DNA from: Candidatus Aceula meridiana
GTDB taxonomy: Bacteria; Omnitrophota; Gorgyraeia; Zapsychrales; Aceulaceae
Length of the DNA stretch: 64,000 nt
Reading direction: 5' to 3'
Assembly (NCBI GenBank): GCA_030765185.1
Contig: JAVCDE010000024.1
Span: 251,538 to 315,537, forward strand
Both the position numbers and the translations under genes were made by a program. Below are positions 1-32,850 of the stretch, piece after piece. Below the pieces are notes generated by a model that saw nothing but the letters and a program-made list of their open reading frames with translations, was not told the origin of the DNA and made no database searches. Numbering within the stretch: position 1 is the first letter of the stretch; every line of letters starts with the position of its first letter.

Positions 1-3000
1 GGTAGCATCCAAATTAAATTCAAATCCATGGCCCTCGGATTGAATATCTATATCCAATGTATCCGCGCCAAGATCGATACCACCGGGACTACTTGATAAT
101 TCTTTATCATCAGAAAAATCAAAAAACCCGTTAGGCCCAACAAGCTCTTTTATAAATTGAGAAGCTTTTCGTTGATCAGTACCAGGTGCTCCAGAATATC
201 CATACTTCAATGATTCTTTATACGTGTCAAAACTTTCTTTGCTATCAAGAACTAAAATAAATTGTATTTTTGCGTAATTCGCTTGAACTTGAGATCGCAA
301 AAAGTCTCCAAGACTCTTGTAATCTTTTATTTCCCCTTTAACAGTAATGGGAGTAAAAACTTGATTATTTGATTCTACCTGCTTTTGCCTTTCTGAAATC
401 TCTTTATCAAAATTGTGAGACCAATAAGGATCATTTAGATCAATACTTATCTGCTCTCCAAAAAGTGTTGGATGAGATTCGGTTAATGCTTGCGCAAAAT
501 CAGCTGGTGAATCATAAAAAACAACTGCATTCCTAAAATGTCCTGGTCGCACACCTTTAAAAAATTCGTTCATCTTCTCAACCTGCTCTTTGGTAACAGT
601 CGAAGAAACAGTTTTAATCTTAGAATTAAAATCTACCGTTTCACTGGTAAACGCAGGAACATTATTAAAATACTCATCCCATGTATAAATAAACTTTTCA
701 AAGAATTCATCGCCTTGAGCGAGGTTAGATCTTTTTCTAAACTGACGCAGCTGCGTATCGACAATATACCAACCATCGATGACAACAACAACATGATTAG
801 CTGTTTTCATGCCCTCAACAATATTTTGAGTATCCTCTGGAATATAAAAATCCATCTTTTTAAAATCATGATTCGTCATTAACTCCGTGTTTTCACGATA
901 ACTTCGCATGATATCGTCGCTTGCTCGCTGACATTGATTCCAATCATAATCATTGAGAACAGGGTATCGGCTTGCCGTGACATCAGCCAATTGCTTAAAC
1001 TGTTCAACCGTCCAATAATTTTCACCCATATTCGACGAACTCTTTTTTGGAGTTAATTTATACGCATCATTCGGAACGACAGGACCAAGCGTATGAGCTG
1101 GAAGCTTTAAGAAAACAGTCTCAATGTTAAAATCATTTAACATTTCTTCGCTTTGCAAAAACTGAGAACTCTTAGGCCCCGATTGCTCCATCTTAATCGG
1201 ATAGTTAAATACAATTTCAGCATCATCAGACAAGTATTCCTTAAATTTTATTAAATAATTAGCAAGATTTTCGGCAGAAGCCACATGCCGAAATCCCATG
1301 TGACCTGCAAGCACATCCACCTTAAGACCATCTTCTTCTAAAAGTTTAAAAAGCTGACGAAAATCAGCAAAATAAAATGTAATACGAGGATCTGCAAAAA
1401 CCCAATTTGGATCAAAGATGTCTCCCACGCCGATAAGCTTTATATTTGTGATTTCCGACGGAATTTGTCTAGCAATTTCATTAAGCGCTTCAGGGTTAAG
1501 CACGCCCGCATCCACATAGACAATGTCTTTTTTTTCTGAAGCATTTTTAGCACGTTCAATTAAATCAGAAACAACATCAATCTGTAAATTTGAATTAAAT
1601 ATATCCAAATCTGTACTCGTATACGTATAGCCCTGTTCTCCTAGCGTCGTCTCACTAAAATCAAAAACACCTTGAGGCTGATCCTTTTTTCCTTCAATAA
1701 TAATATATCGATTTTTATTTTCCAATAATCTTTTCAACTTTTCGCCCTGATCCTTGCTTTGCACCAAAGTTTTTATGGCTGGAGCGTTGCGCCCGGAAGA
1801 AATCTCAAATACTTGCGACTGCTCTGATATTCTACCATAAACCTCATCTGTATATTCTTGTGCGCTAACTGGTATATATCTTCCAAAGGGGATTTCACCG
1901 GATTGAATGTTGCTCCACAAACCAATATTTTTAGCATTCTTAGCTAGAATAACGTTTTTGAGCAACGGGGCAATTTCTTCCCAAAGAGCCCTTGTAATCA
2001 TTCCCTCGCCCTTTTCTCCAGATTGGGAAACTTCCGTTACCATTACATTCGCACCCATCGATCCAAATCTTTTTTCTATCGTCAAAAGATAGTCTTTGTC
2101 ATTAAATTCAAAATATATTGTATTTTCGCCCAAATGACGAATCTTAATCGTCCCTATTTTCTTATCCCCAGACTTTTTCCTATTATGACCAATCAATCCA
2201 TCTTTATCTGAAACAAATTCTCCATACTTGCTACTTGCTATTTCAACAAAAAGAGGAAACAATCCCCCTGGATCGTCCTTGGCAAATGCAAGAAATTGCT
2301 CAAAAGAAACAACAGTTGATCCGCTTAAGAAATGCCTGATTTGAGAAACGACGCTAGGATCTCCACCTTTCCACAAAACTTTTCCAATGTCTGTCTCGAC
2401 GCTAACAATAACATTGATATCTTTTCTAAGGTCCTTAAAATAATTTAGGATTTTATTGACAGATTCAATGTCTATCTCCAAATCTTTCTCTCCTTTGAAT
2501 ACTTTAAGAAAAAGGTTAACTTTTTCTTCATCATATTCTAATGCTTCCCAAATATGCTGAACTAAAAAACGATAGCCAATAGCATTTGCTCTATCATTAT
2601 TCTCGGCAACTCTTCCCTGCTCGTTAAAATCTAAAGTTTTTAACTGCTCCACTAATTCTTTTTGATAATCAGGATCCTTCATATATTCGGTGTAAAGCAC
2701 TTGATTCAAATCATAAGTCTTTAATTTCTTCATACCCCCTTTAATACGCTTGGCTAAAGTAGGATGAATCTTGATCTCTGCAGGATCTTTAATCTCGCTT
2801 TCTAGATCAATTGCATCTAAAAGCAACTGACTCGCTTTAAGGACTTCTTCTTCTGTTGGGTTCTGTTTATACATCAGCTGTGAGTTTGCCTGAATATCAA
2901 CAACAAAAAAATCCTTTTGCCCTTCTAGTTTCATTACCTGCAATTGATATCCATGATGATCGCCAGTTGTCTTACCAAATTTCTTTTGAACAGCATCAGA

Positions 3001-5352
3001 GTGGTGTATCCCTTTATGAAAATAAACTTCTCCAGTTTTAATATCCACAATTGCCTTAATCCCCGAATAATTACTAATTTGATCTTCTTTATATTTTCTA
3101 GCTATATCAGCAGGAACTTTTAGCGGTACTCTTAGTTGTGGTAGATTATAAGAATTGAGCTTATCTGAAAATTTCTCCTCGATGCCTTCTATGGCAGGAG
3201 AGCTTACCCTGACAAGATTTTTGTTTGTTTGAGCATACGGGACAAGGCTATATTCATAATCCCTATTTTCATCCTCTAAAATGATTTTAACCGGTATCTC
3301 CGTAAGGGGTTTTGCGTTAATCTTAATTTCTTGATTTGTTTTTCTAACCGTAGAAACAAACAGTGCGATTTCTTCAACACCTTTTTCAGGGTCATGTTCA
3401 ATATTCTTTGGTTTAATACGAATATCGGCAACGCCTAAATTTCTCATCTCATCAAAAATTTTCTCATAAAATTTAATAACTTCGCGCCCTTTGTCCGTAT
3501 TTGGAAATGTCATTTCAAAATTAAAAGTTCCATCAAGGGCTAAATTTTTATTAAACAAATTTAGCCAAATAGCAATAGGATCCGGATCGTATTGCGCAAC
3601 AAACATTGACATAATCAAATCCATCTTAATAGGGTTACCCTTATCATCAAGGAATTTTACTGTCTTAATGTCCTCTTTTTTAAAAACAAAAGGTTTTTCA
3701 GGTCTTAAATAATCATCTACATTTTTGCCCGGATGCATCACTAAAAATCTTGCACGCCCATCAAGAGTCATTGTCTGGGAATTAATATTATTAAGATCTG
3801 CCCCAAAAACTTCAACAGCCTCTGGTCCAAATGTCTTTTTGCTTCTTACTCTTCGAATAGAACCTATATCTTCATGTCGAGAGCTTATCTCCTGTCTATA
3901 CTCATCCAAACTTTTATTTCCATACTGTTCCAAAATTTCTATCAATGTCATCCCCGCTCCACACCCTGCGTCTAAAACACGCAAAGGTCTACCGCGCTCA
4001 ATGCGGTGAGTTTCGCTAGAAAATCTTTTTAAAAATAGAGCTAAGGGATCTCTAGCTTGTGCTTTCTTAAACCTAAGATCAGCTTGATTGAGCCACCAAT
4101 CATAATTTTTTATTCCACGAAATGCCGTATATTCCCTCTGGCGCGACAACAAGTACTTCTGACTTTTTTGTAACGGTTTAGTTTCCAGAGTACTTGAAAC
4201 CTGACGTAATTTCGCAGGAGAACAGGCGCTCGTTACCTCGCCGATATCTCCAGTTGGCCGAATTATATCTTCTGTTTCGCCTAGCGAAAATCCACCTGAG
4301 AAATATTTGCGCGGAACATTACGCTGTTCGTACTGATCGTATTCAACTTTAACAAAATCACACACACCTTTTTTGAATGCATCAAGATATTGATTATAAA
4401 TTTTTTCTCCAGCCTCTTTATCTTCACCATCTACACCAGCAATCTTGGCCTTGTTGCTGTATTTCTGATTTAAAATAGAATTTTTAAGAGTATTTTTAAA
4501 CCATGTTGCCAGAATCAAAGAATTATAAATTTGACGAAGATTCGCAAAATTTTTGCCGTTGTTGACTTCCCTCTCAATTTGAGGCAAAACAATCTCTCGG
4601 ACAATCTTAGAAGATAAATTACTAACCTCTTTTGTTTCTTTAGCTTTATCTAATTTTGCTCCTATCTTTTGATTATCCAAATTATTCTCAAGAGACAAAT
4701 AATCTTCCTCCAGCATAACCTTAAGATAGCTGCTAACAACAAAAGCATGAGGTCCATTTTCATAAACAACAGCCTTTTGCGGCACAATCCAAACCTTATT
4801 AAAGGTATTAACGGGTATCTGCGTTGTTCCGTATTTCTCAAAAGCTTCTTTGTAAATTCGATCCCAAAATCTCTTGCCCAATTCATCTTCTGGGTAAATA
4901 AGCGACGCTGTAATTTGTTTTAAAATATAGTCTTGAGCCAAAAGGTCTTGGCCCATTTCTGTTTGACCAAAGGCATCTGGGACAATGCGGTCTTCTTCGT
5001 AGGGAGAAAGGTTGACCCAAAGCTCTTGCTTTGGAATCGTTATAGATGCCAAGAAATATTTGATGAGTTTTTCACTCTCTTTTTTAAACTCTTGATCGCT
5101 TAAAGAGGTGTCTCCAATATCCATAATAAAATCAAGCTTAAAAGGATTTTTAGGATCAACTCGTACGCCTCGAAGCAAAACAGGTGAAAAGCTTGGCGTA
5201 AGCGTGATCATAGCCCCAGGCGCAGGCAAAAAGCTTAAAGATTGCGCAAAAGAAGCCGAAGGCATAATCATATTGGCTAAGAATGCAAACATCACAAACC
5301 AGCTAAATAATTTATGATAACGTTTTGTTTTAATATATTTATACATATACAT
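1..5352 (-). CDS. Very large secreted protein (>1780 aa, 3' end beyond window start) with an internal class-I SAM-dependent methyltransferase-like domain; function unknown
   Basis: My own minus-strand translation runs from the ATG at 5352 to position 1 with no stop codon seen; the supplied track lists only short plus-strand ORFs here. N-terminus MYMYKYIKTKRYHKLFSWFVMFAFLANMIMPSASFA reads as a Sec signal peptide. Motif I VLDAGCGAGMTLIE followed by VFGADLN is typical of Rossmann-fold methyltransferases. K/E/D-rich composition matches neighbouring genes. Confidence 0.6.
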   Translation of the reverse strand, partial: MYMYKYIKTKRYHKLFSWFVMFAFLANMIMPSASFAQSLSFLPAPGAMITLTPSFSPVLLRGVRVDPKNPFKLDFIMDIGDTSLSDQEFKKESEKLIKYFLASITIPKQELWVNLSPYEEDRIVPDAFGQTEMGQDLLAQDYILKQITASLIYPEDELGKRFWDRIYKEAFEKYGTTQIPVNTFNKVWIVPQKAVVYENGPHAFVVSSYLKVMLEEDYLSLENNLDNQKIGAKLDKAKETKEVSNLSSKIVREIVLPQIEREVNNGKNFANLRQIYNSLILATWFKNTLKNSILNQKYSNKAKIAGVDGEDKEAGEKIYNQYLDAFKKGVCDFVKVEYDQYEQRNVPRKYFSGGFSLGETEDIIRPTGDIGEVTSACSPAKLRQVSSTLETKPLQKSQKYLLSRQREYTAFRGIKNYDWWLNQADLRFKKAQARDPLALFLKRFSSETHRIERGRPLRVLDAGCGAGMTLIEILEQYGNKSLDEYRQEISSRHEDIGSIRRVRSKKTFGPEAVEVFGADLNNINSQTMTLDGRARFLVMHPGKNVDDYLRPEKPFVFKKEDIKTVKFLDDKGNPIKMDLIMSMFVAQYDPDPIAIWLNLFNKNLALDGTFNFEMTFPNTDKGREVIKFYEKIFDEMRNLGVADIRIKPKNIEHDPEKGVEEIALFVSTVRKTNQEIKINAKPLTEIPVKIILEDENRDYEYSLVPYAQTNKNLVRVSSPAIEGIEEKFSDKLNSYNLPQLRVPLKVPADIARKYKEDQISNYSGIKAIVDIKTGEVYFHKGIHHSDAVQKKFGKTTGDHHGYQLQVMKLEGQKDFFVVDIQANSQLMYKQNPTEEEVLKASQLLLDAIDLESEIKDPAEIKIHPTLAKRIKGGMKKLKTYDLNQVLYTEYMKDPDYQKELVEQLKTLDFNEQGRVAENNDRANAIGYRFLVQHIWEALEYDEEKVNLFLKVFKGEKDLEIDIESVNKILNYFKDLRKDINVIVSVETDIGKVLWKGGDPSVVSQIRHFLSGSTVVSFEQFLAFAKDDPGGLFPLFVEIASSKYGEFVSDKDGLIGHNRKKSGDKKIGTIKIRHLGENTIYFEFNDKDYLLTIEKRFGSMGANVMVTEVSQSGEKGEGMITRALWEEIAPLLKNVILAKNAKNIGLWSNIQSGEIPFGRYIPVSAQEYTDEVYGRISEQSQVFEISSGRNAPAIKTLVQSKDQGEKLKRLLENKNRYIIIEGKKDQPQGVFDFSETTLGEQGYTYTSTDLDIFNSNLQIDVVSDLIERAKNASEKKDIVYVDAGVLNPEALNEIARQIPSEITNIKLIGVGDIFDPNWVFADPRITFYFADFRQLFKLLEEDGLKVDVLAGHMGFRHVASAENLANYLIKFKEYLSDDAEIVFNYPIKMEQSGPKSSQFLQSEEMLNDFNIETVFLKLPAHTLGPVVPNDAYKLTPKKSSSNMGENYWTVEQFKQLADVTASRYPVLNDYDWNQCQRASDDIMRSYRENTELMTNHDFKKMDFYIPEDTQNIVEGMKTANHVVVVIDGWYIVDTQLRQFRKRSNLAQGDEFFEKFIYTWDEYFNNVPAFTSETVDFNSKIKTVSSTVTKEQVEKMNEFFKGVRPGHFRNAVVFYDSPADFAQALTESHPTLFGEQISIDLNDPYWSHNFDKEISERQKQVESNNQVFTPITVKGEIKDYKSLGDFLRSQVQANYAKIQFILVLDSKESFDTYKESLKYGYSGAPGTDQRKASQFIKELVGPNGFFDFSDDKELSSSPGGIDLGADTLDIDIQSEGHGFEFNLDAT

Positions 5353-5750
5353 AATTACTCTATAAATTTTATTTTTAAGTCCACCCTAACGCATAAAGTA
5401 TATACTAATATATTAAGAAAAAAAGGGCATTTGGGCCCTTTTAAGAAAGCGTTTGCATGAAGATATATGTTACGGAATGCAGCGCTCGTAAGCTATTTGT
5501 CCAAATTAATACCAAACTCAAAGAGTGTCGGGAATCCTAATAATATTAGTAAGATTTATATTATTTGGGGAGACTTGAGATTTCTCAATTCGCCCCAAAT
5601 ATAACACATAATCTTTAATATTGCCACTTTATGCCAATTTTTTTAAAATGGTCATCACAAGACACCAATTTATAAAAACTTACTACAAAAAGTTGCTCCA
5701 ATAAACGCTGTAAACCATAAATAGCGAATATCCACCCAAATAGCTAAACG

Positions 5751-5807
5751 CCGTTAAAAAGAAAGAAGAAGAGCGGTTTGAAGAAAATTCTTCAAACCGC
5801 TCTTCTT
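5751..5807 (-). terminator. Rho-independent terminator of the metY-pspC transcript
   Basis: Perfect 17-bp inverted repeat AAGAAGAGCGGTTTGAA / TTCAAACCGCTCTTCTT at 5766-5782 and 5791-5807. A U-tract follows on the minus-strand RNA (plus-strand CCGTTAAAAAGAAAG at 5751-5765), immediately 3' of the pspC stop. Confidence 0.75.
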
Positions 5808-5828
5808 TAATACAAATATTAATATTTG

Positions 5829-6041
5829 TTATGCTTTTTTCTTGTCGCTTTTTTTAGGAATAACAAGCCACATGGCCAAATAGCCGACAATACCCCATCC
5901 AATTGTTAAAAGGGCAACCAGAACAAATAAAAGACGAAAAAGCGTCGCGTCTTTTTCAAAATATTCTGCTATGCCTCCGCAGACTCCACCGATTTTCTTG
6001 TCTTTCTCTGATAAATAAAGTTTTTTAACCTTTCCTGTCAT
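5829..6041 (-). CDS. pspC: PspC-domain membrane protein
   Basis: [23 protein letters not shown] matches the PspC signature KxLYRSxxDkxIaGVCgGlAeYf; one C-terminal TM helix. Confidence 0.8.
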
Positions 6042-6052
6042 AATATTTTCCC

Positions 6053-7354
<1,302 letters not shown>

Positions 7355-7762: not shown

Positions 7763-9034
7763 CTAAAAGCTATATCTAACACGCAGATACATATTTTTAT
7801 TTTTTTTCATTTGTCCAAACGCAGTATGCTCATCTTCGCCCCAAGGAAGATTCGCCCCTAAAGTTGTTCTCCATCTATCGGTAATATCGTAGCTGACCGA
7901 AGGCCTAATATAACCATCATTATCCGTCGGTGAATAAAACGTAAAAAGCGACACACGAACAGTTTGATTCTTAAATAATTTAGTAATGCGATTAGCGAGA
8001 AGATGGCGATGTTGATCCCAGCGGTAATCCTGACTCAAAAGATTATCACGATATTTCGCATAATTCATCATCTGCTCATAAAGATACTGAAAACCAATTT
8101 TAAAATCATTGCCTAAATCTTTTTCATATCCGCTCATCACCTGCAATTTAGAATTAGCAACCGTTCTCTTCACCCCTAAAGGATCCTCTCGTGAATAGTT
8201 GTAACCGACCTCAACGTTTCCTATGCCGCTTGCAATAGGCCCGCGCAGGCTTGCTCCATAAACATCGCGCTTCTCGTGATAAAGCTGACGCAGAGCTTCA
8301 TTTTTATAACTTTCAGGATTTTTGTTATAACCCCAAAAACCATAAAATGCCAATTCATTGCTGCCAAGGCCCTTATAAACCCGCAAGGCGTATTCCGTAT
8401 TTGATAATTGAAATGGCGGTGAAATAATATGTCGGTCAGAATTTCTTCCGGCAATACCACCTTGAAAACTATCGAAAAAAGAAAGCCTGTCCCCTTTTGG
8501 CAACGTGTTAGGCGTAAAATATGGAATCATAACAAAGTCAATATTAGCAAATTTTGGATAAAAAGAAGTTTTAATAGCATCCGATGGTTTCTTCAAATAT
8601 TCATCATCACGTCCGGCATAAAAGGATTCATAATCCTTAGGAAACTGATCGTTAATAAAAAGGTAATCTCCTGTTCCCCAGGTTAAAACTTGACGCCCGG
8701 CTTTTAAATCCATAAAACGAAAAGGGCTTAGAAGAACATTAGCTTCTCTTAAATCAAAGTCTGTTTTTCCCGAGTAATACCAATCTACAAGAAAATCGCC
8801 CCGAAAATTTAAAACCGCACCTTTATTCGCTAAATAGTTTTCCCCGGAAAAATAATGAGTCAGCTTAAGCTGAAGGCGTTGCTCAAGGAGGTTATAGTTA
8901 TCTCTCTTGGTGTTATCATCGCTTAGCTTGAGGCCATAATCAAATTCAACAAACCCATGAAGCTTTGGCAATGCCGCAAAGGCAAGCTGAGGAACAAAAA
9001 TAGCAATAACAAATAAAGGTAGAATCTTCTTCAT
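7763..9034 (-). CDS. Outer-membrane beta-barrel protein (DUF1302-like), partner of the MMPL exporter
   Basis: Signal peptide MKKILPLFVIAIFVPQLAFA; alternating amphipathic strands; C-terminal YLRVRYSF ending in Phe as in OM beta-barrels. Reading frame is contiguous with the next two genes. Confidence 0.5.
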   Translation of the reverse strand: MKKILPLFVIAIFVPQLAFAALPKLHGFVEFDYGLKLSDDNTKRDNYNLLEQRLQLKLTHYFSGENYLANKGAVLNFRGDFLVDWYYSGKTDFDLREANVLLSPFRFMDLKAGRQVLTWGTGDYLFINDQFPKDYESFYAGRDDEYLKKPSDAIKTSFYPKFANIDFVMIPYFTPNTLPKGDRLSFFDSFQGGIAGRNSDRHIISPPFQLSNTEYALRVYKGLGSNELAFYGFWGYNKNPESYKNEALRQLYHEKRDVYGASLRGPIASGIGNVEVGYNYSREDPLGVKRTVANSKLQVMSGYEKDLGNDFKIGFQYLYEQMMNYAKYRDNLLSQDYRWDQHRHLLANRITKLFKNQTVRVSLFTFYSPTDNDGYIRPSVSYDITDRWRTTLGANLPWGEDEHTAFGQMKKNKNMYLRVRYSF

Positions 9035-9035
9035 A

Positions 9036-9815
9036 TCACTGAATCCATTGCATGGCCGGCCGCCTTAAATAGCGTTCGGTAAAAACATTATCTTCTATGC
9101 CGACATCATAGCGAACATTTGTAAATTCCATAACTGTTTGTCCTCCGCGTGCAACATCGACAGAGCGAGACTTAACAACCGTTGGATGGCCATCAATATC
9201 TTTTACGTCTAGCGCCTCTATGGTGCGCATAAGATTACCATCTGCATCATAATACTCGGCCTTCATAGGCATAAAATTTCCTTTATCAATCAAAACAATA
9301 TAATAAGAAAATTCAAGACCCTTCGTATCTTTAGGCATATTTTTAATCTTGTAAGAGTTTTCCTCTTCGCCTAAAAGCTCATGTGTGTCAGCTTCGGTGC
9401 CTCGCCCGGAAACATCTTCGTAAACAAAATGCGACCCTACAAAGCTTGAACGTTTATCACTAGCGGCGATGCGGCGGACCAAATCTAAAGCCGGCAAATA
9501 AAGCCAACGGTCATCATCTTTTCCAATGTTTTTCCAAACCATATAGACCATTTTTTCAACATCCGTTGGCTTCTTAAAATATACATAAAACTTTTGCTCT
9601 GCCCCTTCTTTGACTGTCTTTCGCAAAATACGGAATTCGCGATTTCTTTCTCTTCCCTGAGAGTCTGTAATCGTCATCTTAGCGTCTGAAATTCCGTCCT
9701 TACCTGCATAATAAGAAACCATATTTGCCTTTGAAACAATCTCGTCTGCGGTTTGAGCAAAAGCAGAACCAGCCATTAAAAATAAAACGCCAGCAAGGAT
9801 TAATATTCTTTTCAT
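9036..9815 (-). CDS. LolA-like periplasmic protein (outer-membrane lipoprotein-sorting family, DUF1329-like), MMPL accessory
   Basis: Signal peptide MKRILILAGVLFLMAGSAFA; 259 aa. A 1-nt start/stop overlap with the upstream MMPL gene indicates translational coupling. Confidence 0.5.
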   Translation of the reverse strand: MKRILILAGVLFLMAGSAFAQTADEIVSKANMVSYYAGKDGISDAKMTITDSQGRERNREFRILRKTVKEGAEQKFYVYFKKPTDVEKMVYMVWKNIGKDDDRWLYLPALDLVRRIAASDKRSSFVGSHFVYEDVSGRGTEADTHELLGEEENSYKIKNMPKDTKGLEFSYYIVLIDKGNFMPMKAEYYDADGNLMRTIEALDVKDIDGHPTVVKSRSVDVARGGQTVMEFTNVRYDVGIEDNVFTERYLRRPAMQWIQ

Positions 9816-12331
9816 TATTTATTCCTTTCGGTTAAACAAATTTTTCTTTTTGAGGCAAAATAACACAGGCCTGAAAAAGCAACAATGACCCCAATTATAA
9901 TAAATGTTATTGGCTTCCACCCGGCTGCCGTATATCCAAACAATACATACGCAACTGCGCAGGCAACAAATAAAGCGATGAGCATGCAATTTGAGCATTT
10001 ACAGCTTAACCGCTTATCGCTTTCTTCAAAAATCCATGCCGGTCGAAATGAAACAATTGCCGGCAAGATAAATAATGTTGCGATAGATGAGACCGCCATA
10101 ATCGCAAACATAAAAAATCCAACAGTTTTATAAGGAACTAACGGAGCTGCCAAAAGTGGCAAAAATCCGATCGCCACCACAAGCGCATTGCGAATAATCG
10201 CACGTCCGGGCCCTGCGAACATTTCTTTAGCAGTTTCCTCCCAGGTCTTCTTTTCATGATAGACCTCGGTAGTCCGTTGAATAAAGTGTATTGCAAAATC
10301 AATCGAGAGCCCCAGAGTTAATGCCGAAAGAACAGCAACCGGCATATCATAATCTTTTCCAAAAAATCCTAAAAGACTATAAATAAAAATAATCGTTACC
10401 GTCAAAGGAATCATAGAAATTAGCGCTTTTATCGGTGAACGGAACAAAAAGAGCATCATAAAAAGAACAATGACAAAACTTCCTAAGAAATTCTTAAGCA
10501 TACCGACAACCATATTATTTTGCCAAATAACATTAATATAAGTCAAGCCTGCCCAATGGGACGTCAAAGGATAAGGCGGTGGGTTATCCTTAATATACTG
10601 GCGGATATCTTTGACAACAGCATCCATGTCTTTGTTATCCCCGCTCTTTAATTGAACCCAGATATTCAGCTTAGAATAATTCGGTGTTGTCATATGCCAA
10701 AGATCATCAGGCTTATGTGAATTCTCAAAAGAAATCAAGCACTGAGCTACGGCCTGCTTCGTTTTTGGAATAATATTATTTATCCTGTCTCCTCCTAAAA
10801 GCTCGTAATAAATTTTCTTGATGATATCCGCAAGCGACGTGGTCTTGCCAACATAGCCGGTTTCCATCAAATTGCTTTGAAGCTTTTCAACATAATGGAG
10901 CATCTTTGGCTGGATAAAAATTTCATCGTCTTTATTCTCAGCTTCTAAAACAAAATAGGCCTCATACGTTCCGGCAAAATGCTCATTTAGAACCTTATCC
11001 GCCACACGAATAGGATGCTTCGCCTCAAACCAGCGCACCGGATTGTCATTAACCTGAATGTGGCTAATACCATAAAACGAGATCACAACTAAAACAACCG
11101 TAACAGCCAAAACCGGCTTGAAGTGTCGAGTTGCGACAATTTTAATAATTCGTAAAACCTTATCAAGAAAAACAGTCTTCTCTTTCTTGTCTGCATGCCC
11201 AAACTTTAAGAAATGCTTAGCATTCATCAGCATCACATAGGCAGGAATCAAAGAAATTGTCAAAACCCAGGCAATCAAAACGCCTAAGCCAACAAAAATA
11301 CCAAAAACCTGAACCGGCGGTATCGGCGAGAACGACAAGGAGAAAAACCCAACCGCAGATGTGAGCGATGTAAAAAGCATCGGAGAAAAAAGCTCATCTA
11401 AAACAAACCGCATTGTTTTTTGCTTATCATTAAAAAGATGATATTTGTCAAAAAACTCACTTAGAATATGTACAGAATCTAAAACGGCTATAGGCATTAA
11501 AAAGATTGGAATCATCGAACTCATGATATGAACCGGAAAACCAAATCCGATTAAAAGCCCCATGGTCACTACTACTGTAGCCATCGCCACTAGCATAGGC
11601 GCCACAATTAATGAAACGGATTTAAAGAAAAACCACATTAAAAGAAAAATAACTAATCCTGCCAAAGGCGCGGAAATTGCCATCTGCTTAAACATTTCAA
11701 CGCCAAACTGGTCATTGGCAATCGGCAAGCCTGTATAATGAAATTCCTCTTCACCAGGGTATTTTTCGACAATCTTCTGAATTGCCTGCTTCACTTCATA
11801 GCTTATGTCCTTTTTCTCAATGGGGATATAAAGCGCTAAAGCCTTACCGTCTTCAGAAACAAGACTTCCGTGAAACATGGGATTGTCTTGCGCTTCATCG
11901 CGAACCAAAAGAGCCTCCTGTTGATTCTTGGGAGGAGCCTCCATCAACCAATTAAACCTTACCGTACCAACACCGGCTTGCTGAATATTGTCTTTTGTGG
12001 ACGGAGCAATAATCTCTGAAGCAATTACACCATCAACTTTCTTAATTTCTTCGGTAATGTTATAAATCTTTGTTAAAGTCTCAATATTAAAAACGCCGTT
12101 CGGATCTTCATTATTTATAACGCCGATAACAACAAGGTCGTATATCGCAAATTCTTTTTTCATCTCTCGGTTAAAAACACGCACCGGTGCATCAGAGGGA
12201 AGCATATTTTCTGGGTCTGTATCAACTTTGATGCGCGGATATTGAATAAGCGCAAGAATTGCAAAAGCCGCAATAATCCAAATAAGAACTTTAGGCTTAC
12301 GGATAGAAAATTCAACAAATCTTTTAATCAT
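9815..12331 (-). CDS. MMPL/RND-superfamily exporter (HpnN-like, 12 TM with two large periplasmic loops)
   Basis: 838 aa. Two repeated 6-TM bundles with SSD-like hydrophobic cores (PMLVAMATVVVTMGLL..., LSIDFAIHFI...). Confidence 0.8.
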   Translation of the reverse strand: MIKRFVEFSIRKPKVLIWIIAAFAILALIQYPRIKVDTDPENMLPSDAPVRVFNREMKKEFAIYDLVVIGVINNEDPNGVFNIETLTKIYNITEEIKKVDGVIASEIIAPSTKDNIQQAGVGTVRFNWLMEAPPKNQQEALLVRDEAQDNPMFHGSLVSEDGKALALYIPIEKKDISYEVKQAIQKIVEKYPGEEEFHYTGLPIANDQFGVEMFKQMAISAPLAGLVIFLLMWFFFKSVSLIVAPMLVAMATVVVTMGLLIGFGFPVHIMSSMIPIFLMPIAVLDSVHILSEFFDKYHLFNDKQKTMRFVLDELFSPMLFTSLTSAVGFFSLSFSPIPPVQVFGIFVGLGVLIAWVLTISLIPAYVMLMNAKHFLKFGHADKKEKTVFLDKVLRIIKIVATRHFKPVLAVTVVLVVISFYGISHIQVNDNPVRWFEAKHPIRVADKVLNEHFAGTYEAYFVLEAENKDDEIFIQPKMLHYVEKLQSNLMETGYVGKTTSLADIIKKIYYELLGGDRINNIIPKTKQAVAQCLISFENSHKPDDLWHMTTPNYSKLNIWVQLKSGDNKDMDAVVKDIRQYIKDNPPPYPLTSHWAGLTYINVIWQNNMVVGMLKNFLGSFVIVLFMMLFLFRSPIKALISMIPLTVTIIFIYSLLGFFGKDYDMPVAVLSALTLGLSIDFAIHFIQRTTEVYHEKKTWEETAKEMFAGPGRAIIRNALVVAIGFLPLLAAPLVPYKTVGFFMFAIMAVSSIATLFILPAIVSFRPAWIFEESDKRLSCKCSNCMLIALFVACAVAYVLFGYTAAGWKPITFIIIGVIVAFSGLCYFASKRKICLTERNK

Positions 12332-15709: not shown

Positions 15710-16798
15710 TTAACAAATGCGTGGCAGCTGACCGCCGGAAAGCATGTCAATTATGCGGAGGGTTCCAATTTGATTTTGCATTATAACATCAGCATTCTTA
15801 TCTTTTTTTACATATCCGATTATCCCAGCCCCTTTTCCTTGGGGATGGCTCATCATAACCTTTAAAACCTTATCTGCGTCTTGAGGTGGTACAAAACAAA
15901 TAAAGCGGCCTTCATTAGCTACATAAAGCGGATCTAATCCTAAAATTTCACAAGCAGCATTTACATCTTCACGAACAGAAATCTTTTTCTCTTCAATTTC
16001 AATACTCAACCCAGAAGTCTTTGCGATCTCAACTAGTGATGTAGCCAATCCTCCACGCGTTAAATCGCGTAAACACTTTATCGAAGCCTTTGTATCAAAG
16101 ATTTTCATGACCAAATCTGATAAAGAGGCTGCGTCACTTTTAATTTCGCTCTCAAATGACAAGCCCTCCCTGACCGCCATAATCGCAATTCCATGCCGTC
16201 CAATATCTCCGCTTAAAACAATAACATCACCCTCTTCAATCGACTGAGGTAAAATTTCTCTGTCATGCTCTATAATCCCAATGCCGGTTGTATTAATAAA
16301 AATTCCGTCTGCTTTTCCTTTATCAACAACCTTAGTATCACCAGCTACAATCTGAACACCTGCATCTTGCGCTGCCTGCTGCATCGAATTTACAACGCGC
16401 CAAAGTGTTTCCATGGGCAATCCTTCTTCTAAAATAAACCCTGCTGTAAGATACTTGGGTCGAGCTCCGCACATAGCCAAATCATTAACCGTACCATGAA
16501 CAGCCAAAGAACCAATATCGCCTCCCGGAAAGAACAACGGATAAACCACAAAAGAATCTGTTGTCGTTGCTATTTTACCACCAGAAATATCTAAAACAGC
16601 CCCATCATGCGCTTGGTCAAGTATTGGATTCTTAAAAACAGCGTGAAATATCTTTTCAATAAGCTGATGCATCAAAACTCCTCCGCTTCCGTGAGCTAAC
16701 AATACTTGCGGATAATCTTTAATCGGAATCGGGCAGCTTAATTGGAAATCTTTATCTTTTTTCATTTTTGTTTCCGGTAACGATAATATGCAGAACAC
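15710..16798 (-). CDS. hypE: Hydrogenase maturation protein HypE (true start probably the second Met, about 16765)
   Basis: AIR-synthase-like fold; LLAHGSGG; C-terminal PRIC with the thiocyanate-carrying Cys. Confidence 0.9.
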
Positions 16799-17850
16799 GC
16801 TCCTTCTGTAGAAACCATCGGGGCGCCTAAAGGATGCTCAGGTCGACAGATTTTTCCAAAAGCCTCGCACTCATAAGGTTTTTTGACGCCTTGCAAAACA
16901 AGCGCGCTAATGCATTCTTTTGGTTCATGTGTCTCTATTCCTTCAAGAGGAAAAATTTTCTCAGCATCAAAAGCGGAAAATTCTTCTTTTAAAACAAGAC
17001 CACTTTTAGGAATCTCTCCTATGCCGCGCCATTTACGCACAGCAACATCAAATACTTTAGAAATAATTTCTTGAGCAGACTTATTGCCGCCCTCGTGAAC
17101 TGAACGCGCATATTGATTCTCAACTTCACAGCTACCCTGTTCAAGCTGCTTAACGCACATATAAACACCCTGTAAAATATCAATAGGCTCAAAACCTGTA
17201 ACAACAATTGGAACTTTATATTTCTTTGCTAAAGGAAAATATTCATCATAACCCATAATTGTACAGACATGACCAGCGGCCAAAAAACCCTGTATGCGAT
17301 TTAAGGAAGATGATAAAACAGCTTCCATCGCAGGTGGCACAAGAACATGGGAAACCAAAAGAGAAAAATTTGTAATTCCCTCTTTTCTAGCTTGATACGC
17401 TGCCCAGGCATTGCCGGGGGCTGTGGTTTCAAACCCTATCGCAAAGAAGACAACTTTCTTGCTAGGATTTTCTTTTGCAATCTTCAAGGCATCTGCCGGT
17501 GAATAAACAATGCGCACATCGCCTCCTTGGGCCTTTACAGTCAGCAAATCTTTTTCACTTCCCGGAACACGCAACATATCTCCAAAGGAGCAAAAAATAA
17601 CATCATCTCTCAGAGCAAGAACAATGGCCTTATCAATCGATTCGAGTGGTGTTACACAAACAGGACAGCCCGGCCCGTGGACAAGTTCTATTCCTTTAGG
17701 CAAAAGCGTATCAAGACCAAAACGGATAATACTATGTGTCTGGCCTCCACAAATTTCCATAATGGTCCAAGGCTTTGTAGTAATCTTGGCAATGCCTTTA
17801 GCTAGATTCTTTGCATCTTGCGCATAACGATATTCATCCACAAACTTCAT
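16762..17850 (-). CDS. hypD: Hydrogenase maturation protein HypD
   Basis: [13 protein letters not shown] and GFETTAP motifs. Confidence 0.92.
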
Positions 17851-18092
17851 TGAGCGTCTCCGTAAAGTTCATCAATTTCTCTAAGATACTCAAAAGTTTT
17901 CTTCGCTTCTTCTTCATCTAGCTGGCTAATAGCAAAACCGGTATGAACAATGACATAATCCCCTTGCTTTGCTTCCGGGACATAGGCCAAATTGATTTCT
18001 TTGATAACGCCTGAGAAATCTACTTTACCCATCCTCAAAAGAGGATCATTGCCTTCAACGCTTATAATTTTTCCTGGAACAGCTAAGCACAT
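17847..18092 (-). CDS. hypC: Hydrogenase maturation protein HypC
   Basis: N-terminal MCLAVPGKI (essential Cys2); 81 aa. Confidence 0.9.
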
Positions 18093-18093
18093 A

Positions 18094-20352
18094 TTATGAT
18101 TTTAACTCCTTATGCGCAGCAACAACCTGCCCTAAAGAAATTCCACCATCATTGGGTGGGATTCTCTGGTGCCAATAAACAGAAAGCTTCTGTGCGCGTA
18201 ATCTTTGTATGGCATGCTCTAACAAATATTTATTCTGAAAACAACCGCCGGTTAAAACAATCTTTTCCATGCCGCTTCTTTTGACAATGGCTGCAATAAT
18301 ATCTACTAATGTATTATGAAATTTAGCACAAATAAAGGATGCATGAAAGTCCTTTTCTATGTCGACTAAAATTTCTTTGATGGATGGCCCATCGATTAAA
18401 AGACTCTCCCCTTTTTCAATTGAAAACGAATAAACCTTATCTGTTGTCTCAAGCCCAGCAGCAAACTCAAGCATCATAGCTGCCTGACCTTCAAATTGCA
18501 TAATCTGACAAAGCCCTGTTAAAGATGCAACTGCATCAAAAATCCGTCCTACGCTTGATGTTAACGGGCTATTAATTTTCTTTCGCAACATCGTTCTTAG
18601 ATCTTGAAATTCTTTAACATCAAAGCCCTTATAGGCTTTAATATTCTTAAGTTTAAAAGCCTTTTCCTTAAAGATACTGTAGAGAAGCCCCATGGCCGAA
18701 CGTCTTGGCTCTTTAATCGCTTTTTCACCGCCTGGCAAAGGAAATGGACGAAAATGCGCAAATCGCGTAAAACCTTTGTTGTCGACTTTAAAAAACTCTC
18801 CACCCCAGATGGTTGTATCTAACCCGTAACCTGTTCCGTCCCACGCGACTCCTAAGACCTCGCCTTCAATCTCATTTTCTGCCATACAAGATAGCACATG
18901 AGCATAATGATGTTGAACCTGGATAACAGGAAGGCCCATTTTTCTAGCAAACTGAGTCGAAAGATAATCGGGATGAACATCACAGGCAACAACTTTTGGT
19001 CTAATATCGTAAAGCGTACCCAAATCCTTAATTGTTTCTTCAAATGTATAAAAGCTTTTTGCGGTTTCCAAGTCTCCAATATGTTGGCTAACAAAAATAT
19101 TATTGTCGCGGCTTAAAGAAACAGTATTTTTTAAGTGCGGCCCAACCGATAAAACCATATCGCCTGCGCCCTGACAAGGAATCGGCAAAGGCGCAAAGCC
19201 GCGTGCGCGTCTCAAAACCATTTCACGTCCCTCTATAATTCTCACAATAGAATCATCCACATGACGCGCAATAGGCCTACTGTGCATAAGAAAAACATCA
19301 GCAATGCCGCAAAGAGTCTCTGCTACTTCTTGCTCATCGATACAAATCGTTTCCTCTGTAATATTGCCACTAGTTGCAACAACAGGAAACTTTAAATTCT
19401 CCATCAACAAAATATGTAAAGGCGTGTAGGGCATCATCACGCCTAAGTAAGGGTTGCAGGGTGCAACATCTTCGCACACGCTTGTTTTTTCTTTTTTTGT
19501 CAAAAGAACAATCGGCGTTTCCGGCGATGTCAAAAGCCTTTCTTCTAAAACAGAAACATTGCAGTCTTTTTTAATTTCTTCAAGACTCGGATACATCACA
19601 GCAAATGGTTTAGCTTCGCGGTGTTTGCGTTCTCGCAAGCGTTTAACAACGTCAAAACTTCTTGCGTCAGCCATTAAGTGAAATCCACCTATTCCTTTAA
19701 CCGCAGCAATTTTTCCGTCTTTGATCATTTGCGCGCAACCTAAAAGGGCTGCATCGCAATCTGCTAAAACTTTTTTATTTCTATCCCAAAGTTCAAGGTG
19801 TGGTCCACACTCTGCGCATGCATTTGGCTGTGCATGAAATCGTCTATTTTGAGGATCGTCATATTCACCTTGGCAATCAGAGCACATTTTAAAATTCTTC
19901 ATTGTTGTGTTGGCCCTGTCGTAAGGAAGGCTTTTAATAATGCTATATCGTGGGCCGCAATTGGTACAGTTCGCAAAAGGATATCGGTATCGTCGGTTTT
20001 TAGAATCTAATATTTCCGCTCGGCAATCAGGGCACGTGGCAATATCAGGTAAAATCAGCGCAGTCTTTTCTCCACCTTTGCTTTCTCGGATTTCAAAGCC
20101 TTGATACCCTTTTACATCTAAAAATGAAGATTCCATGCTTTGAATAGAGCTAAGCGCCGGCTTTTCTTTTTTGATGCGCAGCAAAAATTCTTCTAAAGTT
20201 TTTTGCTCTCCCTCGGCCTCAATCGTAACACCTTGGCCTGAATTTAAGACCCATCCTTGGAGCTCTAGATTTTCAGCCAATTTATAAATAAATGGACGAA
20301 AACCCACGCCTTGAACAGCGCCTCGGATAAATATACGCAATCTACTTTTCAT
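18094..20352 (-). CDS. hypF: Carbamoyltransferase HypF
   Basis: Acylphosphatase N-terminus, two CxxC-x18-CxxC zinc fingers (CPDC...CTNCGPRYS), YrdC and Kae1-like domains; 752 aa. Confidence 0.92.
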   Translation of the reverse strand: MKSRLRIFIRGAVQGVGFRPFIYKLAENLELQGWVLNSGQGVTIEAEGEQKTLEEFLLRIKKEKPALSSIQSMESSFLDVKGYQGFEIRESKGGEKTALILPDIATCPDCRAEILDSKNRRYRYPFANCTNCGPRYSIIKSLPYDRANTTMKNFKMCSDCQGEYDDPQNRRFHAQPNACAECGPHLELWDRNKKVLADCDAALLGCAQMIKDGKIAAVKGIGGFHLMADARSFDVVKRLRERKHREAKPFAVMYPSLEEIKKDCNVSVLEERLLTSPETPIVLLTKKEKTSVCEDVAPCNPYLGVMMPYTPLHILLMENLKFPVVATSGNITEETICIDEQEVAETLCGIADVFLMHSRPIARHVDDSIVRIIEGREMVLRRARGFAPLPIPCQGAGDMVLSVGPHLKNTVSLSRDNNIFVSQHIGDLETAKSFYTFEETIKDLGTLYDIRPKVVACDVHPDYLSTQFARKMGLPVIQVQHHYAHVLSCMAENEIEGEVLGVAWDGTGYGLDTTIWGGEFFKVDNKGFTRFAHFRPFPLPGGEKAIKEPRRSAMGLLYSIFKEKAFKLKNIKAYKGFDVKEFQDLRTMLRKKINSPLTSSVGRIFDAVASLTGLCQIMQFEGQAAMMLEFAAGLETTDKVYSFSIEKGESLLIDGPSIKEILVDIEKDFHASFICAKFHNTLVDIIAAIVKRSGMEKIVLTGGCFQNKYLLEHAIQRLRAQKLSVYWHQRIPPNDGGISLGQVVAAHKELKS

Positions 20353-32848: not shown

Positions 32849-32850
32849 CT

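What the first reader, a model, noticed from the sequence alone, without database searches (positions are those of the whole stretch)
1..5352. Over-1780-aa secreted protein with an embedded SAM-methyltransferase fold, invisible to the ORF track because it runs off the window
5.3 kb with no stop on the minus strand. Signal peptide. Motif I VLDAGCGAGM and post-I acidic VFGADLN at about residues 470-520 of the visible portion. The rest is K/E/D-rich with no repeats I can assign. A methyltransferase domain in an exported giant protein is odd because SAM is cytoplasmic. It may methylate before export, be a cell-surface adhesin with a degenerate MTase-fold binding module, or be a toxin or effector. 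The gene is preceded by a 475-bp structured non-coding region (hairpins at about 5406-5426 and 5565-5602), unusually long for this compact genome.
Basis: partly seen in the sequence, partly recalled or inferred. Interest (0 to 1): 0.6.

Follow-up and report, generated by a model that had tools for sequence, protein, structure and literature searches.

The report
Exported modular enzyme-carrier protein, Omnitrophota
The 5.3-kb open frame is real and encodes one member of a very large family, not found described in the literature searched, from the tiny and possibly predatory Omnitrophota bacteria: a fixed head and tail bracket a swappable cargo of normally intracellular enzymes, here a genuine methyltransferase, apparently for use outside the producing cell.

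Summary
Window 5352..1 (minus strand) is 1784 codons with no stop. It is 100% identical to a 1827-aa hypothetical protein of Candidatus Aceula meridiana (Omnitrophota), so only 43 residues are missing. The methyltransferase is real: motif I and the beta2 Asp are conserved, and Pfam PF13489 passes its cut-off once a 31-aa lineage-specific insertion is removed.

The larger finding is the architecture. A Sec-type signal peptide is followed by a ~320-aa conserved N-terminal "cap" that has no Pfam, NCBIfam or PDB relative. Then come a hypervariable payload and a ~70-aa conserved C-terminal tail (GGIDL...G-F-x-PVIINI-x-P-x-x-NLP-x-x-LG). About 8,000 protein clusters at 50% identity carry the cap, and every named source organism but one is Omnitrophota. 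Their payloads are cytoplasmic-type enzymes: methyltransferases, enolase, GAPDH, PGK, UbiB kinases, GNATs and receiver domains.

Four syntenic orthologues keep cap and tail (75-87% and 53-77% identity) but have largely different payloads. The family has about 8-fold less cysteine than its neighbours (0.13% against 1.08%), yet it keeps catalytic cysteines. This points to active enzymes that work outside the producer's cytoplasm. My preferred reading is host- or prey-directed effectors or surface enzymes, and that step is inferred.

The 476-bp upstream region holds a conserved promoter-like element, a hairpin and a terminator-like element.

The parts
1..5352 (-). Visible 1784 of 1827 codons of the gene (Ca. 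Aceula meridiana P9M07_04510). The start codon is at 5352-5350. The last 43 aa lie beyond the window start.
5245..5352 (-). Sec-type signal peptide, aa 1-36. Predicted signal peptidase I site is SFA|Q between A36 and Q37.
   Evidence: rule-based; the pattern is conserved across the family
4291..5244 (-). Conserved N-terminal cap domain, aa 37-354 (LPxPGxMV ... WVNLSPYE ... QDYxLKQ ... NTFNKVW ... PRKYFSGG). It defines the family.
   Evidence: 7998 cluster representatives at E<=1e-3, always N-terminal. 119 of 119 fetched homologues align here. No Pfam, NCBIfam or PDB match. AlphaFold2 model: mean pLDDT 72, mixed alpha/beta.
3187..4155 (-). Methyltransferase module 1, aa 400-722, including N- and C-terminal extensions shared with P0002, P0005, P0006 and P0007.
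3433..4020 (-). Class I SAM-dependent methyltransferase core, aa ~445-640. Motif I VLDAGCGAGM is at nt 3949-3978. The beta2 acidic motif VFGADLN is at nt 3790-3810.
3826..3918 (-). 31-aa insertion (aa 479-509) between the motif I helix and beta2. It is absent from the paralogues and lowers the Pfam score.
2218..3123 (-). Module of unknown function, aa 744-1045, shared at 24-31% identity with P0017, P0008, P0002, P0003 and P0004.
1201..1743 (-). Second methyltransferase-like domain, aa 1204-1384. It is homologous to both Pfam-positive methyltransferase domains of P0021, but the GxGxG motif is replaced by AGVLN, so it is probably not SAM-binding.
610..1002 (-). Module with invariant Cys, His and Asp (NQC...H..V.IDG.Y..DTQL.QF), aa 1451-1581, shared with P0003 and P0006. 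C1474 is one of only 4 cysteines in the protein. It is a candidate thiol hydrolase, unconfirmed.
   Evidence: Profile searches found no known family.
1..102 (-). First 34 residues of the conserved ~70-aa C-terminal tail (SSSPGGIDLGADTLDIDIQSEGHGFEFNLDAT...). The hydrophobic, Pro-rich half lies beyond the window.
5353..5828 (-). 476-bp upstream non-coding region, the longest intergenic gap in the window.
5766..5807 (-). Intrinsic terminator (19-bp stem) of the upstream PspC-domain gene.
5598..5608 (-). Extended -10-like element TGTGTTATATT, conserved in the four orthologous loci.
5567..5596 (-). Conserved hairpin directly after the -10-like element (GGGGCGAATTGAG...CTCAAGTCTCCCC). One G-C to A-T compensatory change is seen in L080.
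5415..5442 (-). Conserved terminator-like hairpin plus T7 run, 63 nt upstream of the start codon. It could be a leader attenuator or the end of a small RNA; this is unresolved.
   Evidence: No Rfam family.

Best explanation
What it is (shown). The gene encodes a 1827-aa member of an Omnitrophota-wide paralogous family with a fixed 'cap - payload - tail' design. The parts are a Sec-type signal peptide, a ~320-aa conserved N-terminal cap of unknown fold, a hypervariable payload, and a ~70-aa conserved C-terminal tail. In this member the payload holds an intact class I SAM-methyltransferase with a 31-aa insertion, a second methyltransferase-like domain with a degraded SAM loop, a Cys/His/Asp module, and unassigned modules.

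How it works (inferred). The protein is exported by Sec and probably cleaved after A36. Cap and tail supply the function common to the family: recognition by a post-Sec secretion, anchoring or delivery route, or assembly on the cell surface. The payload supplies the member-specific activity. Payloads across the family are catalytically competent enzymes that need SAM, ATP, NAD or acetyl-CoA. The proteins are purged of every cysteine except functionally essential ones. I therefore think the enzymes act outside the producer's cytoplasm. The most likely site is at or inside a contacted host or prey cell, where this member's methyltransferase would use the target cell's SAM. Payload replacement at a fixed chromosomal locus between close relatives fits conflict-driven diversification.
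For: Family and architecture: 3819+ hits sharing only the N-terminal ~20%; 7998 representatives, cap always N-terminal; tail at the extreme C-terminus in 169 of 207 members, the rest mostly short fragments; tail-only ORFs are the 3' halves of split genes; 585 loci in GTDB species genomes; of the 78 loci kept, all named ones are Omnitrophota, and the rest carry only generic labels.

Export: positively charged n-region, one hydrophobic h-region, conserved A-x-A|Q site, no internal transmembrane segment in the query and none in 155 of 207 members; cysteine 0.13% in the family against 1.08% in 425 neighbouring ORFs of the same loci and 1.65% in window neighbours; 75 of 169 payloads have no cysteine at all.

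Active payload: the GAPDH catalytic Cys in SCTTN is kept in P0112 and in both GAPDH domains of P0039, although almost all other cysteines are gone; motif I and the beta2 Asp are invariant; Pfam methyltransferase above cut-off; enolase 2e-48, GAPDH 1e-51, PGK 3e-36, GNAT.

Payload turnover: same synteny: MMPL, LolA-like, 423-aa ORF, YgaP-like gene, then this gene, rubredoxin, flavodiiron; flanking proteins 70-90% identical, cap 84-87%, tail 73-76%, most of the payload with no detectable similarity.

Lifestyle context: Omnitrophota are ultra-small with predicted predatory or parasitic traits (PMC10066038). Giant exported multi-enzyme proteins in the phylum have been proposed to act on prey (bioRxiv 10.1101/2023.11.21.568195).
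Against: There is no experimental localisation. The signal peptide was judged by rules, not by a trained predictor. No secretion or delivery machinery is linked to these genes: no neighbour family is conserved, and this gene sits among housekeeping genes. The functions of cap and tail are unknown, and their predicted folds are of moderate or low confidence with no structural match. Glycolytic enzymes are unusual effectors. Delivery into another cell is pure inference. Cysteine exclusion supports an extracytoplasmic or unfolded-transit life, but it does not say where the enzymes end up.
Confidence: 0.5

Rival explanations
1. Surface coat or periplasmic scaffold. The protein is exported but stays on the producer. 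Cap and tail anchor it, or link members head-to-tail, in the envelope (a 'velamen'-like coat). The payload enzymes or binding modules act in the periplasm or on the surface on material released from hosts, and are not delivered into another cell.
For: The export evidence is the same as for the best explanation. The tail is hydrophobic and Pro-rich and is predicted as beta-strands, which suits docking or membrane or wall association. No delivery machinery is linked to the genes. [quoted passage not shown] The query's second methyltransferase-like domain looks non-catalytic.
Against: Payloads keep their catalytic residues and need SAM, ATP, NAD or acetyl-CoA, which are not expected outside a cytoplasm. 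Interaction between cap and tail could not be tested.
Confidence: 0.28
2. Cytoplasmic, membrane-tethered enzyme scaffold. The N-terminal hydrophobic segment is an uncleaved anchor, or is non-functional, and the payload stays in the producer's cytoplasm. There the methyltransferase and the metabolic enzymes use the cell's own cofactors.
For: This removes the cofactor paradox. Payload enzyme families are typical cytoplasmic ones. A 2026 preprint reads about 46% of very long Omnitrophota proteins as membrane-anchored with cytoplasmic domains (10.64898/2026.06.07.730766).
Against: The positive charge lies N-terminal of the hydrophobic segment, and an A-x-A|Q site follows it, which predicts an N-in, C-out topology with cleavage. 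The roughly 8-fold cysteine depletion relative to cytoplasmic neighbours is hard to explain for cytoplasmic proteins. The conserved extreme C-terminal tail looks like a sorting or assembly signal.
Confidence: 0.12
3. One reading: a one-off giant adhesin with a degenerate methyltransferase-fold binding module, or an enzyme that methylates a substrate or itself before export.
For: One of the two methyltransferase-like domains has a degraded SAM loop. Most of the payload has no assignable function.
Against: It is not a one-off. The first methyltransferase domain has conserved SAM-binding motifs. There are no adhesin-type repeats or domains.
Confidence: 0.05

Closest known systems
'Archaeovorin'-type giant proteins of Omnitrophota (West-Roberts et al. 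2023, bioRxiv 10.1101/2023.11.21.568195; Seymour et al. 2023, PMC10066038; 2026 preprint 10.64898/2026.06.07.730766)
   Same: Same phylum. Signal-peptide-bearing polypeptides that string together methyltransferases, NUDIX, kinases, sugar-metabolism enzymes, HATPase, GNAT and receiver domains. Proposed roles are extracellular or prey-directed.
   Different: Those proteins are 10-147 kaa with tens to hundreds of transmembrane helices, and most lie next to a T2SS/T4P-like locus and PilZ genes. This protein is 1.8 kaa with no internal transmembrane segment, among housekeeping genes. The cap and tail that define its family are not mentioned in those papers. Whether the giants carry the cap or tail was not tested.
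MARTX toxins (own knowledge)
   Same: Conserved N- and C-terminal regions bracket a mosaic of interchangeable effector domains that differ between strains. Effectors use host-cell cofactors. A cysteine-protease module is embedded.
   Different: MARTX toxins have glycine-rich RTX repeats, lack a Sec signal and leave the cell by type I secretion. No RTX or CPD profile matches here. The Cys/His/Asp module is unassigned.
Type IX secretion cargo proteins with a C-terminal domain (own knowledge)
   Same: Sec signal peptide plus a conserved sorting domain of about 70-100 aa at the extreme C-terminus, on otherwise unrelated enzymes.
   Different: No match to the NCBIfam or Pfam sorting-tail models. 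T9SS is a Bacteroidota system. T9SS cargo has no common N-terminal domain.
Polymorphic toxins with conserved N-terminal trafficking domains (MafB, CdiA/TpsA, LXG, Rhs; own knowledge)
   Same: A conserved N-terminal module, hypervariable functional modules exchanged between paralogues and strains, and tandem arrays with gene fragments (L018, L039).
   Different: In those systems the variable toxin is C-terminal and is paired with an immunity gene. Here the payload is internal, consists mostly of metabolic or regulatory enzyme families, and no immunity-like neighbour recurs. No TPS, LXG or Rhs profile matches.
Class I SAM-dependent methyltransferases (Pfam PF13489 Methyltransf_23 and relatives)
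   Same: Motif I (V/I)LDxGCGxG, an acidic residue at the end of beta2, and a profile match above the cut-off after the insertion is removed.
   Different: The domain is embedded in an exported 1827-aa protein, carries a 31-aa insertion and family-specific N- and C-terminal extensions, and has no close solved structure by sequence. The substrate is unknown.

Membership tests
Class I SAM-dependent methyltransferase (PF13489 / Rossmann-like methyltransferase clan) | Glycine-rich motif I (E/D-x-G-x-G-x-G) that binds SAM | tested here: met
   VLDAGCGAGM at aa 459-468. L61, D62, A63, G64, C65, G66 and G68 are invariant in the paralogue alignment A1.
Class I SAM-dependent methyltransferase (PF13489 / Rossmann-like methyltransferase clan) | Acidic residue at the end of beta2 that binds the ribose hydroxyls | tested here: met
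   The D in VFGADLN (aa 515-521) is invariant in A1 as G118/D120.
Class I SAM-dependent methyltransferase (PF13489 / Rossmann-like methyltransferase clan) | Profile score above the curated gathering cut-off | tested here: inconclusive
   The native sequence scores 19 bits, below 27. With the 31-aa insertion deleted it scores 31.2 bits, E=2.3e-7. The syntenic orthologue P0002 scores 34.8 bits and passes four families.
Class I SAM-dependent methyltransferase (PF13489 / Rossmann-like methyltransferase clan) | Seven-stranded Rossmann-like fold, SAM binding and methyl transfer | not tested
Activity cannot be tested with these tools.
Omnitrophota cap-payload-tail family (unnamed; defined here) | N-terminal Sec-type signal peptide followed directly by the conserved ~320-aa cap | tested here: met
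Omnitrophota cap-payload-tail family (unnamed; defined here) | Conserved ~70-aa tail at the extreme C-terminus | tested here: met
   The first 34 tail residues are in the window. The full tail is in the 100%-identical P0001.
Omnitrophota cap-payload-tail family (unnamed; defined here) | Strong cysteine depletion | tested here: met
   4 Cys in 1827 aa (0.2%). Family mean 0.13% against 1.08% in neighbours.
Archaeovorin-type giant proteins (West-Roberts 2023) | Giant size (tens of kaa) with many transmembrane helices | tested here: not met
   1827 aa. The only hydrophobic segments are the signal peptide and the tail.
Archaeovorin-type giant proteins (West-Roberts 2023) | Preceded by a T2SS/T4P-like secretion locus and followed by PilZ genes | tested here: not met
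   Upstream are MMPL, LolA-like, a PLP enzyme and PspC. Downstream in the orthologous loci are rubredoxin, flavodiiron and FUR genes.
Archaeovorin-type giant proteins (West-Roberts 2023) | Mosaic of methyltransferase, glycosyltransferase, hydrolase, peptidase and NUDIX domains in an exported Omnitrophota protein | tested here: inconclusive
   Methyltransferase domains are present here. Other family members carry NUDIX, peptidase M48 and kinases. Shared ancestry of cap or tail with the giants was not tested.
MARTX toxin | RTX-type glycine-rich repeats, a type I secretion signal and a CPD protease | tested here: not met
   No such Pfam or NCBIfam hits. A Sec signal peptide is present instead.
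T9SS cargo (Por secretion tail) | Match to C-terminal sorting-domain models | tested here: not met
   NCBIfam scans of full-length P0001 and P0083, and Pfam scans of full-length P0002, P0005, P0006 and P0021, give nothing at the tail.
Two-partner-secretion or polymorphic toxins (TPS, LXG, Rhs, MafB) | Match to the known N-terminal trafficking domains; a downstream immunity gene | tested here: not met
   No Pfam hit in the cap at E<=1. No recurrent neighbour gene.

The most novel reading that the evidence does not exclude
The cap and tail are the handles of a phylum-wide protein export and delivery (or surface-display) system that I did not find described in the literature searched. Through it, Omnitrophota would send thousands of different, catalytically active, cysteine-purged copies of 'cytoplasmic' enzymes out of the cell. 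These include methyltransferases, kinases, acetyltransferases and even glycolytic enzymes. They would reprogramme or exploit the metabolism of a contacted host or prey cell, or run metabolism in an extracytoplasmic compartment. Payloads would be swapped by recombination between the conserved ends.
Probability: 0.3. Interest if true: 0.85.

Novelty: new variant of a known kind. Interest (0 to 1): 0.66.

Why it matters
Omnitrophota are globally abundant, uncultured ultra-small bacteria, and how they interact with hosts or prey is an open question. Attention so far has gone to their rare giant ORFs. This finding points to a far more numerous family of 1-5 kaa proteins (about 8,000 clusters at 50% identity, several per genome, sometimes in tandem). 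The family has a recognisable head and tail and is not covered by Pfam or NCBIfam.

The architecture gives a searchable handle for cataloguing the phylum's exported repertoire. The cysteine-exclusion signature, combined with retained catalytic cysteines, gives a testable prediction: active enzymes working outside the producer's cytoplasm. The family also matters for annotation. Glycolytic and other 'metabolic' genes counted in Omnitrophota MAG reconstructions may in part be payloads of these proteins rather than housekeeping enzymes.

Tried and rejected
1. I recalled 'SPEARE proteins' as an Omnitrophota feature. The literature search showed that the Ace Lake paper does not mention them, so I dropped the lead.

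2. Sequence profiles against PDB found nothing: methyltransferase module A1, cap A2, Cys/His/Asp module A5, and the whole protein (only Hbl-L1 at E=0.39).

4. I suspected a CHAP or papain-like fold for the NQC...H...D module. Pfam and PDB profile searches do not support it, so it stays a candidate only.

The full-length P0153 model gives the tail only pLDDT 50-74, and no contact information is returned.

6. A payload-only homologue search returned just P0001 and P0002. A tail-profile search returned only short C-terminal fragments. Both were uninformative.

7. NCBIfam, PADLOC and Rfam gave nothing relevant. NCBIfam. PADLOC. Rfam: and the sub-threshold hits nearly all fall on the PspC terminator hairpin.

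8. A search for a conserved neighbour gene in 78 GTDB loci found none. The best candidate was a receiver-domain ORF in 11 loci.

9. A phage origin is unlikely: only 3 loci in 2.9 million viral contigs.
Full report
**Observation.** Translating window 5352..1 on the minus strand gives 1784 codons without a stop. The ORF lister omits this frame because it runs off the window. The product is 100% identical over its whole length to P0001, a 1827-aa 'hypothetical protein P9M07_04510' from a metagenome-assembled genome of Candidatus Aceula meridiana (Omnitrophota, Ace Lake, Antarctica) (genus described in PMC8542988). Only 43 C-terminal residues are therefore missing. There are no tandem repeats. The upstream gap 5353-5828 (476 bp) is the longest in a window whose median gap is 14.5 bp and which is 94% coding.

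**The methyltransferase is genuine.**
- On the native sequence Pfam gives only PF13489 at E=1.3e-3, 19 bits, below the cut-off of 27.
- Alignment with the homologous modules of P0002, P0005 and P0006 (P0007's module is homologous by BLAST) shows a 31-aa insertion (aa 479-509) between the motif I helix and beta2. It also shows an invariant LDAGCGxG motif and an invariant Asp at the end of beta2.
- With the insertion removed, PF13489 scores 31.2 bits, E=2.3e-7.
- The syntenic orthologue P0002 passes the cut-off for four methyltransferase families.
- A second region, aa 1204-1384, is homologous to both Pfam-positive methyltransferase domains of P0021 (E=7e-14 and 2e-9). Its GxGxG loop reads AGVLN, so it is probably a non-catalytic derivative.
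- The module at aa 1451-1581 is shared with P0003 and P0006 and has an invariant Cys, His and Asp. Profile searches did not assign it to a family.
- The module at aa 744-1045 is shared with five paralogues and has no assignable function.

**The family.**
- The homologue search returned more than 3800 significant hits, but nearly all cover only the first ~20% of the query.
- An exhaustive phmmer of aa 37-380 against 1.84 billion cluster representatives found 7998 proteins (6222 at E<=1e-30). In the 150 best hits listed, the match begins within about 160 residues of the N-terminus, usually at residues 30-75, at 55-65% identity. Total lengths range from about 420 to 4783 aa.
- The fetched sequences also share a ~70-aa C-terminal tail with consensus GGIDLNP..L.L...G.G......(16)..I.GF.PVIINI.P..NLP..LG. 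An HMM of it hits 169 of 207 fetched members within about 70 residues of the C-terminus (130 within 20). Most of the others are short fragments.
- In GTDB genomes, tail-only ORFs are the 3' halves of split genes.
- Neither cap nor tail matches Pfam, NCBIfam or PDB sequences.
- An AlphaFold2 model of the cap (38-sequence alignment, mean pLDDT 72, pTM 0.63) is a mixed alpha/beta domain with no significant Foldseek match in PDB.
- In a full-length 633-aa member the tail is predicted as three short strands at pLDDT 50-74.
- Every named source organism is Omnitrophota, except generic 'uncultured Planctomycetales', 'MAG: bacterium' and unnamed entries, and one probably misbinned 'Pacearchaeota' entry.
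- A scan of one genome per GTDB species found at least 585 loci, several per genome and sometimes in tandem: three in L018, and two plus fragments in L039.
- Only three loci turned up in 2.9 million viral contigs.

**Payloads across the family.** The regions between cap and tail carry families normally found in the cytoplasm:
- SAM methyltransferases, UbiB/ABC1 kinases with M48 peptidases, receiver domains, HATPase, GNAT, NUDIX, radical SAM and HEAT repeats;
- central-metabolism enzymes.

I re-scanned examples that all have signal peptide, cap and tail:
- enolase (E=2e-48; its C-terminal domain precedes its N-terminal domain);
- GAPDH (1e-51);
- PGK (3e-36);
- GNAT.

**Export signature.** The query has a basic n-region, a single hydrophobic h-region (aa 15-33) and the c-region PSASFA|Q. 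Apart from the tail it has no other hydrophobic segment, and 155 of 207 members have no internal transmembrane-like segment. Across the family the residue at -3 is small in 146 of 174 members and +1 is Gln in 154 of 174.

**Cysteine exclusion.** Independently of the signal peptide, the family is almost free of cysteine:
- 0.13% overall and 0.10% in payloads;
- 75 of 169 payloads (median length 1259 aa) contain none;
- this compares with 1.08% in 425 neighbouring ORFs from the same loci and 1.65% in the window's other genes.

The cysteines that remain are the functional ones. In P0112 the only non-signal cysteines are C600 and C603 in the GAPDH active-site motif SCTTN. In P0039 both GAPDH domains keep their catalytic Cys. 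The query's four cysteines include C464 in motif I and C1474, the invariant Cys of the Cys/His/Asp module. Cysteine exclusion is a known property of proteins that work outside the cytoplasm or are secreted unfolded (my own knowledge, e.g. Gram-positive exoproteins and RTX toxins). Together with the retained catalytic residues, it argues for active enzymes that live outside the producer's cytoplasm.

**Payload turnover at a fixed locus.** P0002, P0003 and P0004 are encoded at the same chromosomal position as the window gene. Upstream lie MMPL, a LolA-like gene, a 423-aa ORF and a YgaP-like gene (plus PspC in some). Downstream lie rubredoxin, a flavodiiron protein, PNPOx and FUR.
- Between the window and loci L080 and L079, flanking proteins are 81-90% and 70-80% identical.
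- The cap is 84-87% identical and the tail 73-76%.
- Only aa 357-721 (51%) plus about 140 aa (27%) of the payload align with L080, and only about 280 aa (28%) with L079.
- P0002, P0003 and P0004 share a ~950-aa block at 30-45% identity that P0001 largely lacks.

Payloads therefore evolve by module replacement between conserved ends.

**Mechanism.** Shown: the architecture, the size and taxonomic range of the family, the methyltransferase assignment, cysteine exclusion with retained catalytic cysteines, and payload swapping. Inferred: Sec export with cleavage after A36; cap and tail as common handles for secretion, anchoring or delivery; and payload action at or inside a contacted host or prey cell, where SAM, ATP and NAD are available. 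This reading fits the predicted predatory or parasitic biology of these nanobacteria (PMC10066038) and proposals for the phylum's giant multi-enzyme proteins (10.1101/2023.11.21.568195). I give it 0.5 overall. Export itself I put at about 0.8, and delivery into another cell at about 0.35-0.4.

**Rivals.** A surface coat or periplasmic scaffold: 0.28. A cytoplasmic membrane-tethered scaffold: 0.12; this is disfavoured by the charge distribution, the cleavage motif and the cysteine depletion.

**What weakens the effector reading.** No secretion machinery or immunity-like gene is linked to these genes. The folds of cap and tail remain unassigned.

**Upstream region.** After the PspC-domain gene and its strong terminator (5807-5766), four orthologous loci share these elements in order:
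- an extended -10-like TGTGyTATATT (5608-5598);
- an adjacent hairpin (5596-5567), with one G-C to A-T compensatory change in L080;
- a variable spacer, with about 80 extra nt in the window;
- a terminator-like hairpin plus T7 run (5442-5415);
- the conserved blocks GTATATACTT and GTTAGGGTrG, about 25 nt before the ATG.

The motifs occur only at this locus among the 86 loci fetched. They match no Rfam family. The region folds better than shuffled controls (z=-3.5). It is either an attenuating leader or a small RNA gene; I could not decide which.

**Comparison and novelty.** The protein resembles the Omnitrophota giant 'Archaeovorins' in phylum and domain content but fails their defining features of size, transmembrane helices and genomic context. 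It works like MARTX toxins (conserved ends, swappable effectors) and like T9SS cargo (Sec signal plus C-terminal sorting domain), but it matches none of their defining sequence features. The papers I could search describe the giants, not this cap-tail family. I rate it a new variant of a known kind. The individual gene is already deposited as a hypothetical protein.

Noticed in passing
window 32718-32859 (-): Cobalamin riboswitch (RF00174, 57.6 bits, E=1e-11). It is the only Rfam gathering-level hit in the window.
   Followed up: no
window 5415-5608 (-); L079 5825-5964; L080 5825-5968; L082 4547-4736: A unit made of a promoter-like element, a hairpin and a terminator-like element is conserved upstream of the four orthologous genes. 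It is absent upstream of other paralogues. The window copy has an insertion of about 80 nt. It may be an unannotated small RNA or an attenuator.
   Followed up: partly
window 6053-7348 (-): A Cys/Met-metabolism PLP-dependent enzyme gene lies between the YgaP-like and PspC genes here. It is absent from that position in the syntenic loci L079, L080 and L082, so it is a local insertion.
   Followed up: partly
P0011 (family member), aa 742-1261: The enolase payload has its domains in swapped order: Enolase_C at 742-1026 comes before Enolase_N at 1054-1261. This suggests a circularly permuted enolase.
   Followed up: no
P0112 aa 597-606; P0039 aa 630-640 and 1070-1080: GAPDH payloads keep the catalytic Cys of SCTTNC but replace the second Cys with Ala (SCTTNA). 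This fits family-wide purging of non-essential cysteines.
   Followed up: partly
window 1-6000 versus the rest: The gene is about 4 points lower in G+C (0.355-0.367) than most of the window (about 0.39-0.44). Similar dips occur at 14-16 kb and 42-44 kb.
   Followed up: no
window 7763-12331 (-): A conserved trio of an MMPL/RND-like transporter, a LolA-like (TP_0789-like) protein and a 423-aa ORF with no Pfam match. All four genomes have the trio, at 70-90% identity in the two compared (L079, L080). It is likely a lipid or lipoprotein export operon with an uncharacterised third component.
   Followed up: no
window 15710-20352 (-): Hydrogenase maturation genes: a HypE-like AIR-synthase-family gene, HypD and HypF. 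This fits the single NiFe hydrogenase reported for Ca. Aceula.
   Followed up: no
L018, L039, L026, L038, L057 (GTDB Omnitrophota loci): Family genes occur in tandem arrays (three in L018; two plus cap-only fragments in L039) and as genes split into a cap-bearing ORF and a tail-bearing ORF. These could be pseudogenes, assembly frameshifts, or raw material for payload exchange.
   Followed up: partly
cap domain, aa ~190-300 of the query: Two independent but non-significant hints point to ClyA-family alpha-pore-forming toxins. phmmer finds Hbl-L1 (7nmq_A) at E=0.39. Foldseek finds NheA, MakA and MakE at probability 0.15 or less. This is a lead only.
   Followed up: partly
L084-L086 (IMG/VR contigs): Three contigs classified as viral encode cap-bearing proteins (51-54% identity). 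They may be misclassified cellular fragments or prophage-adjacent genes.
   Followed up: no
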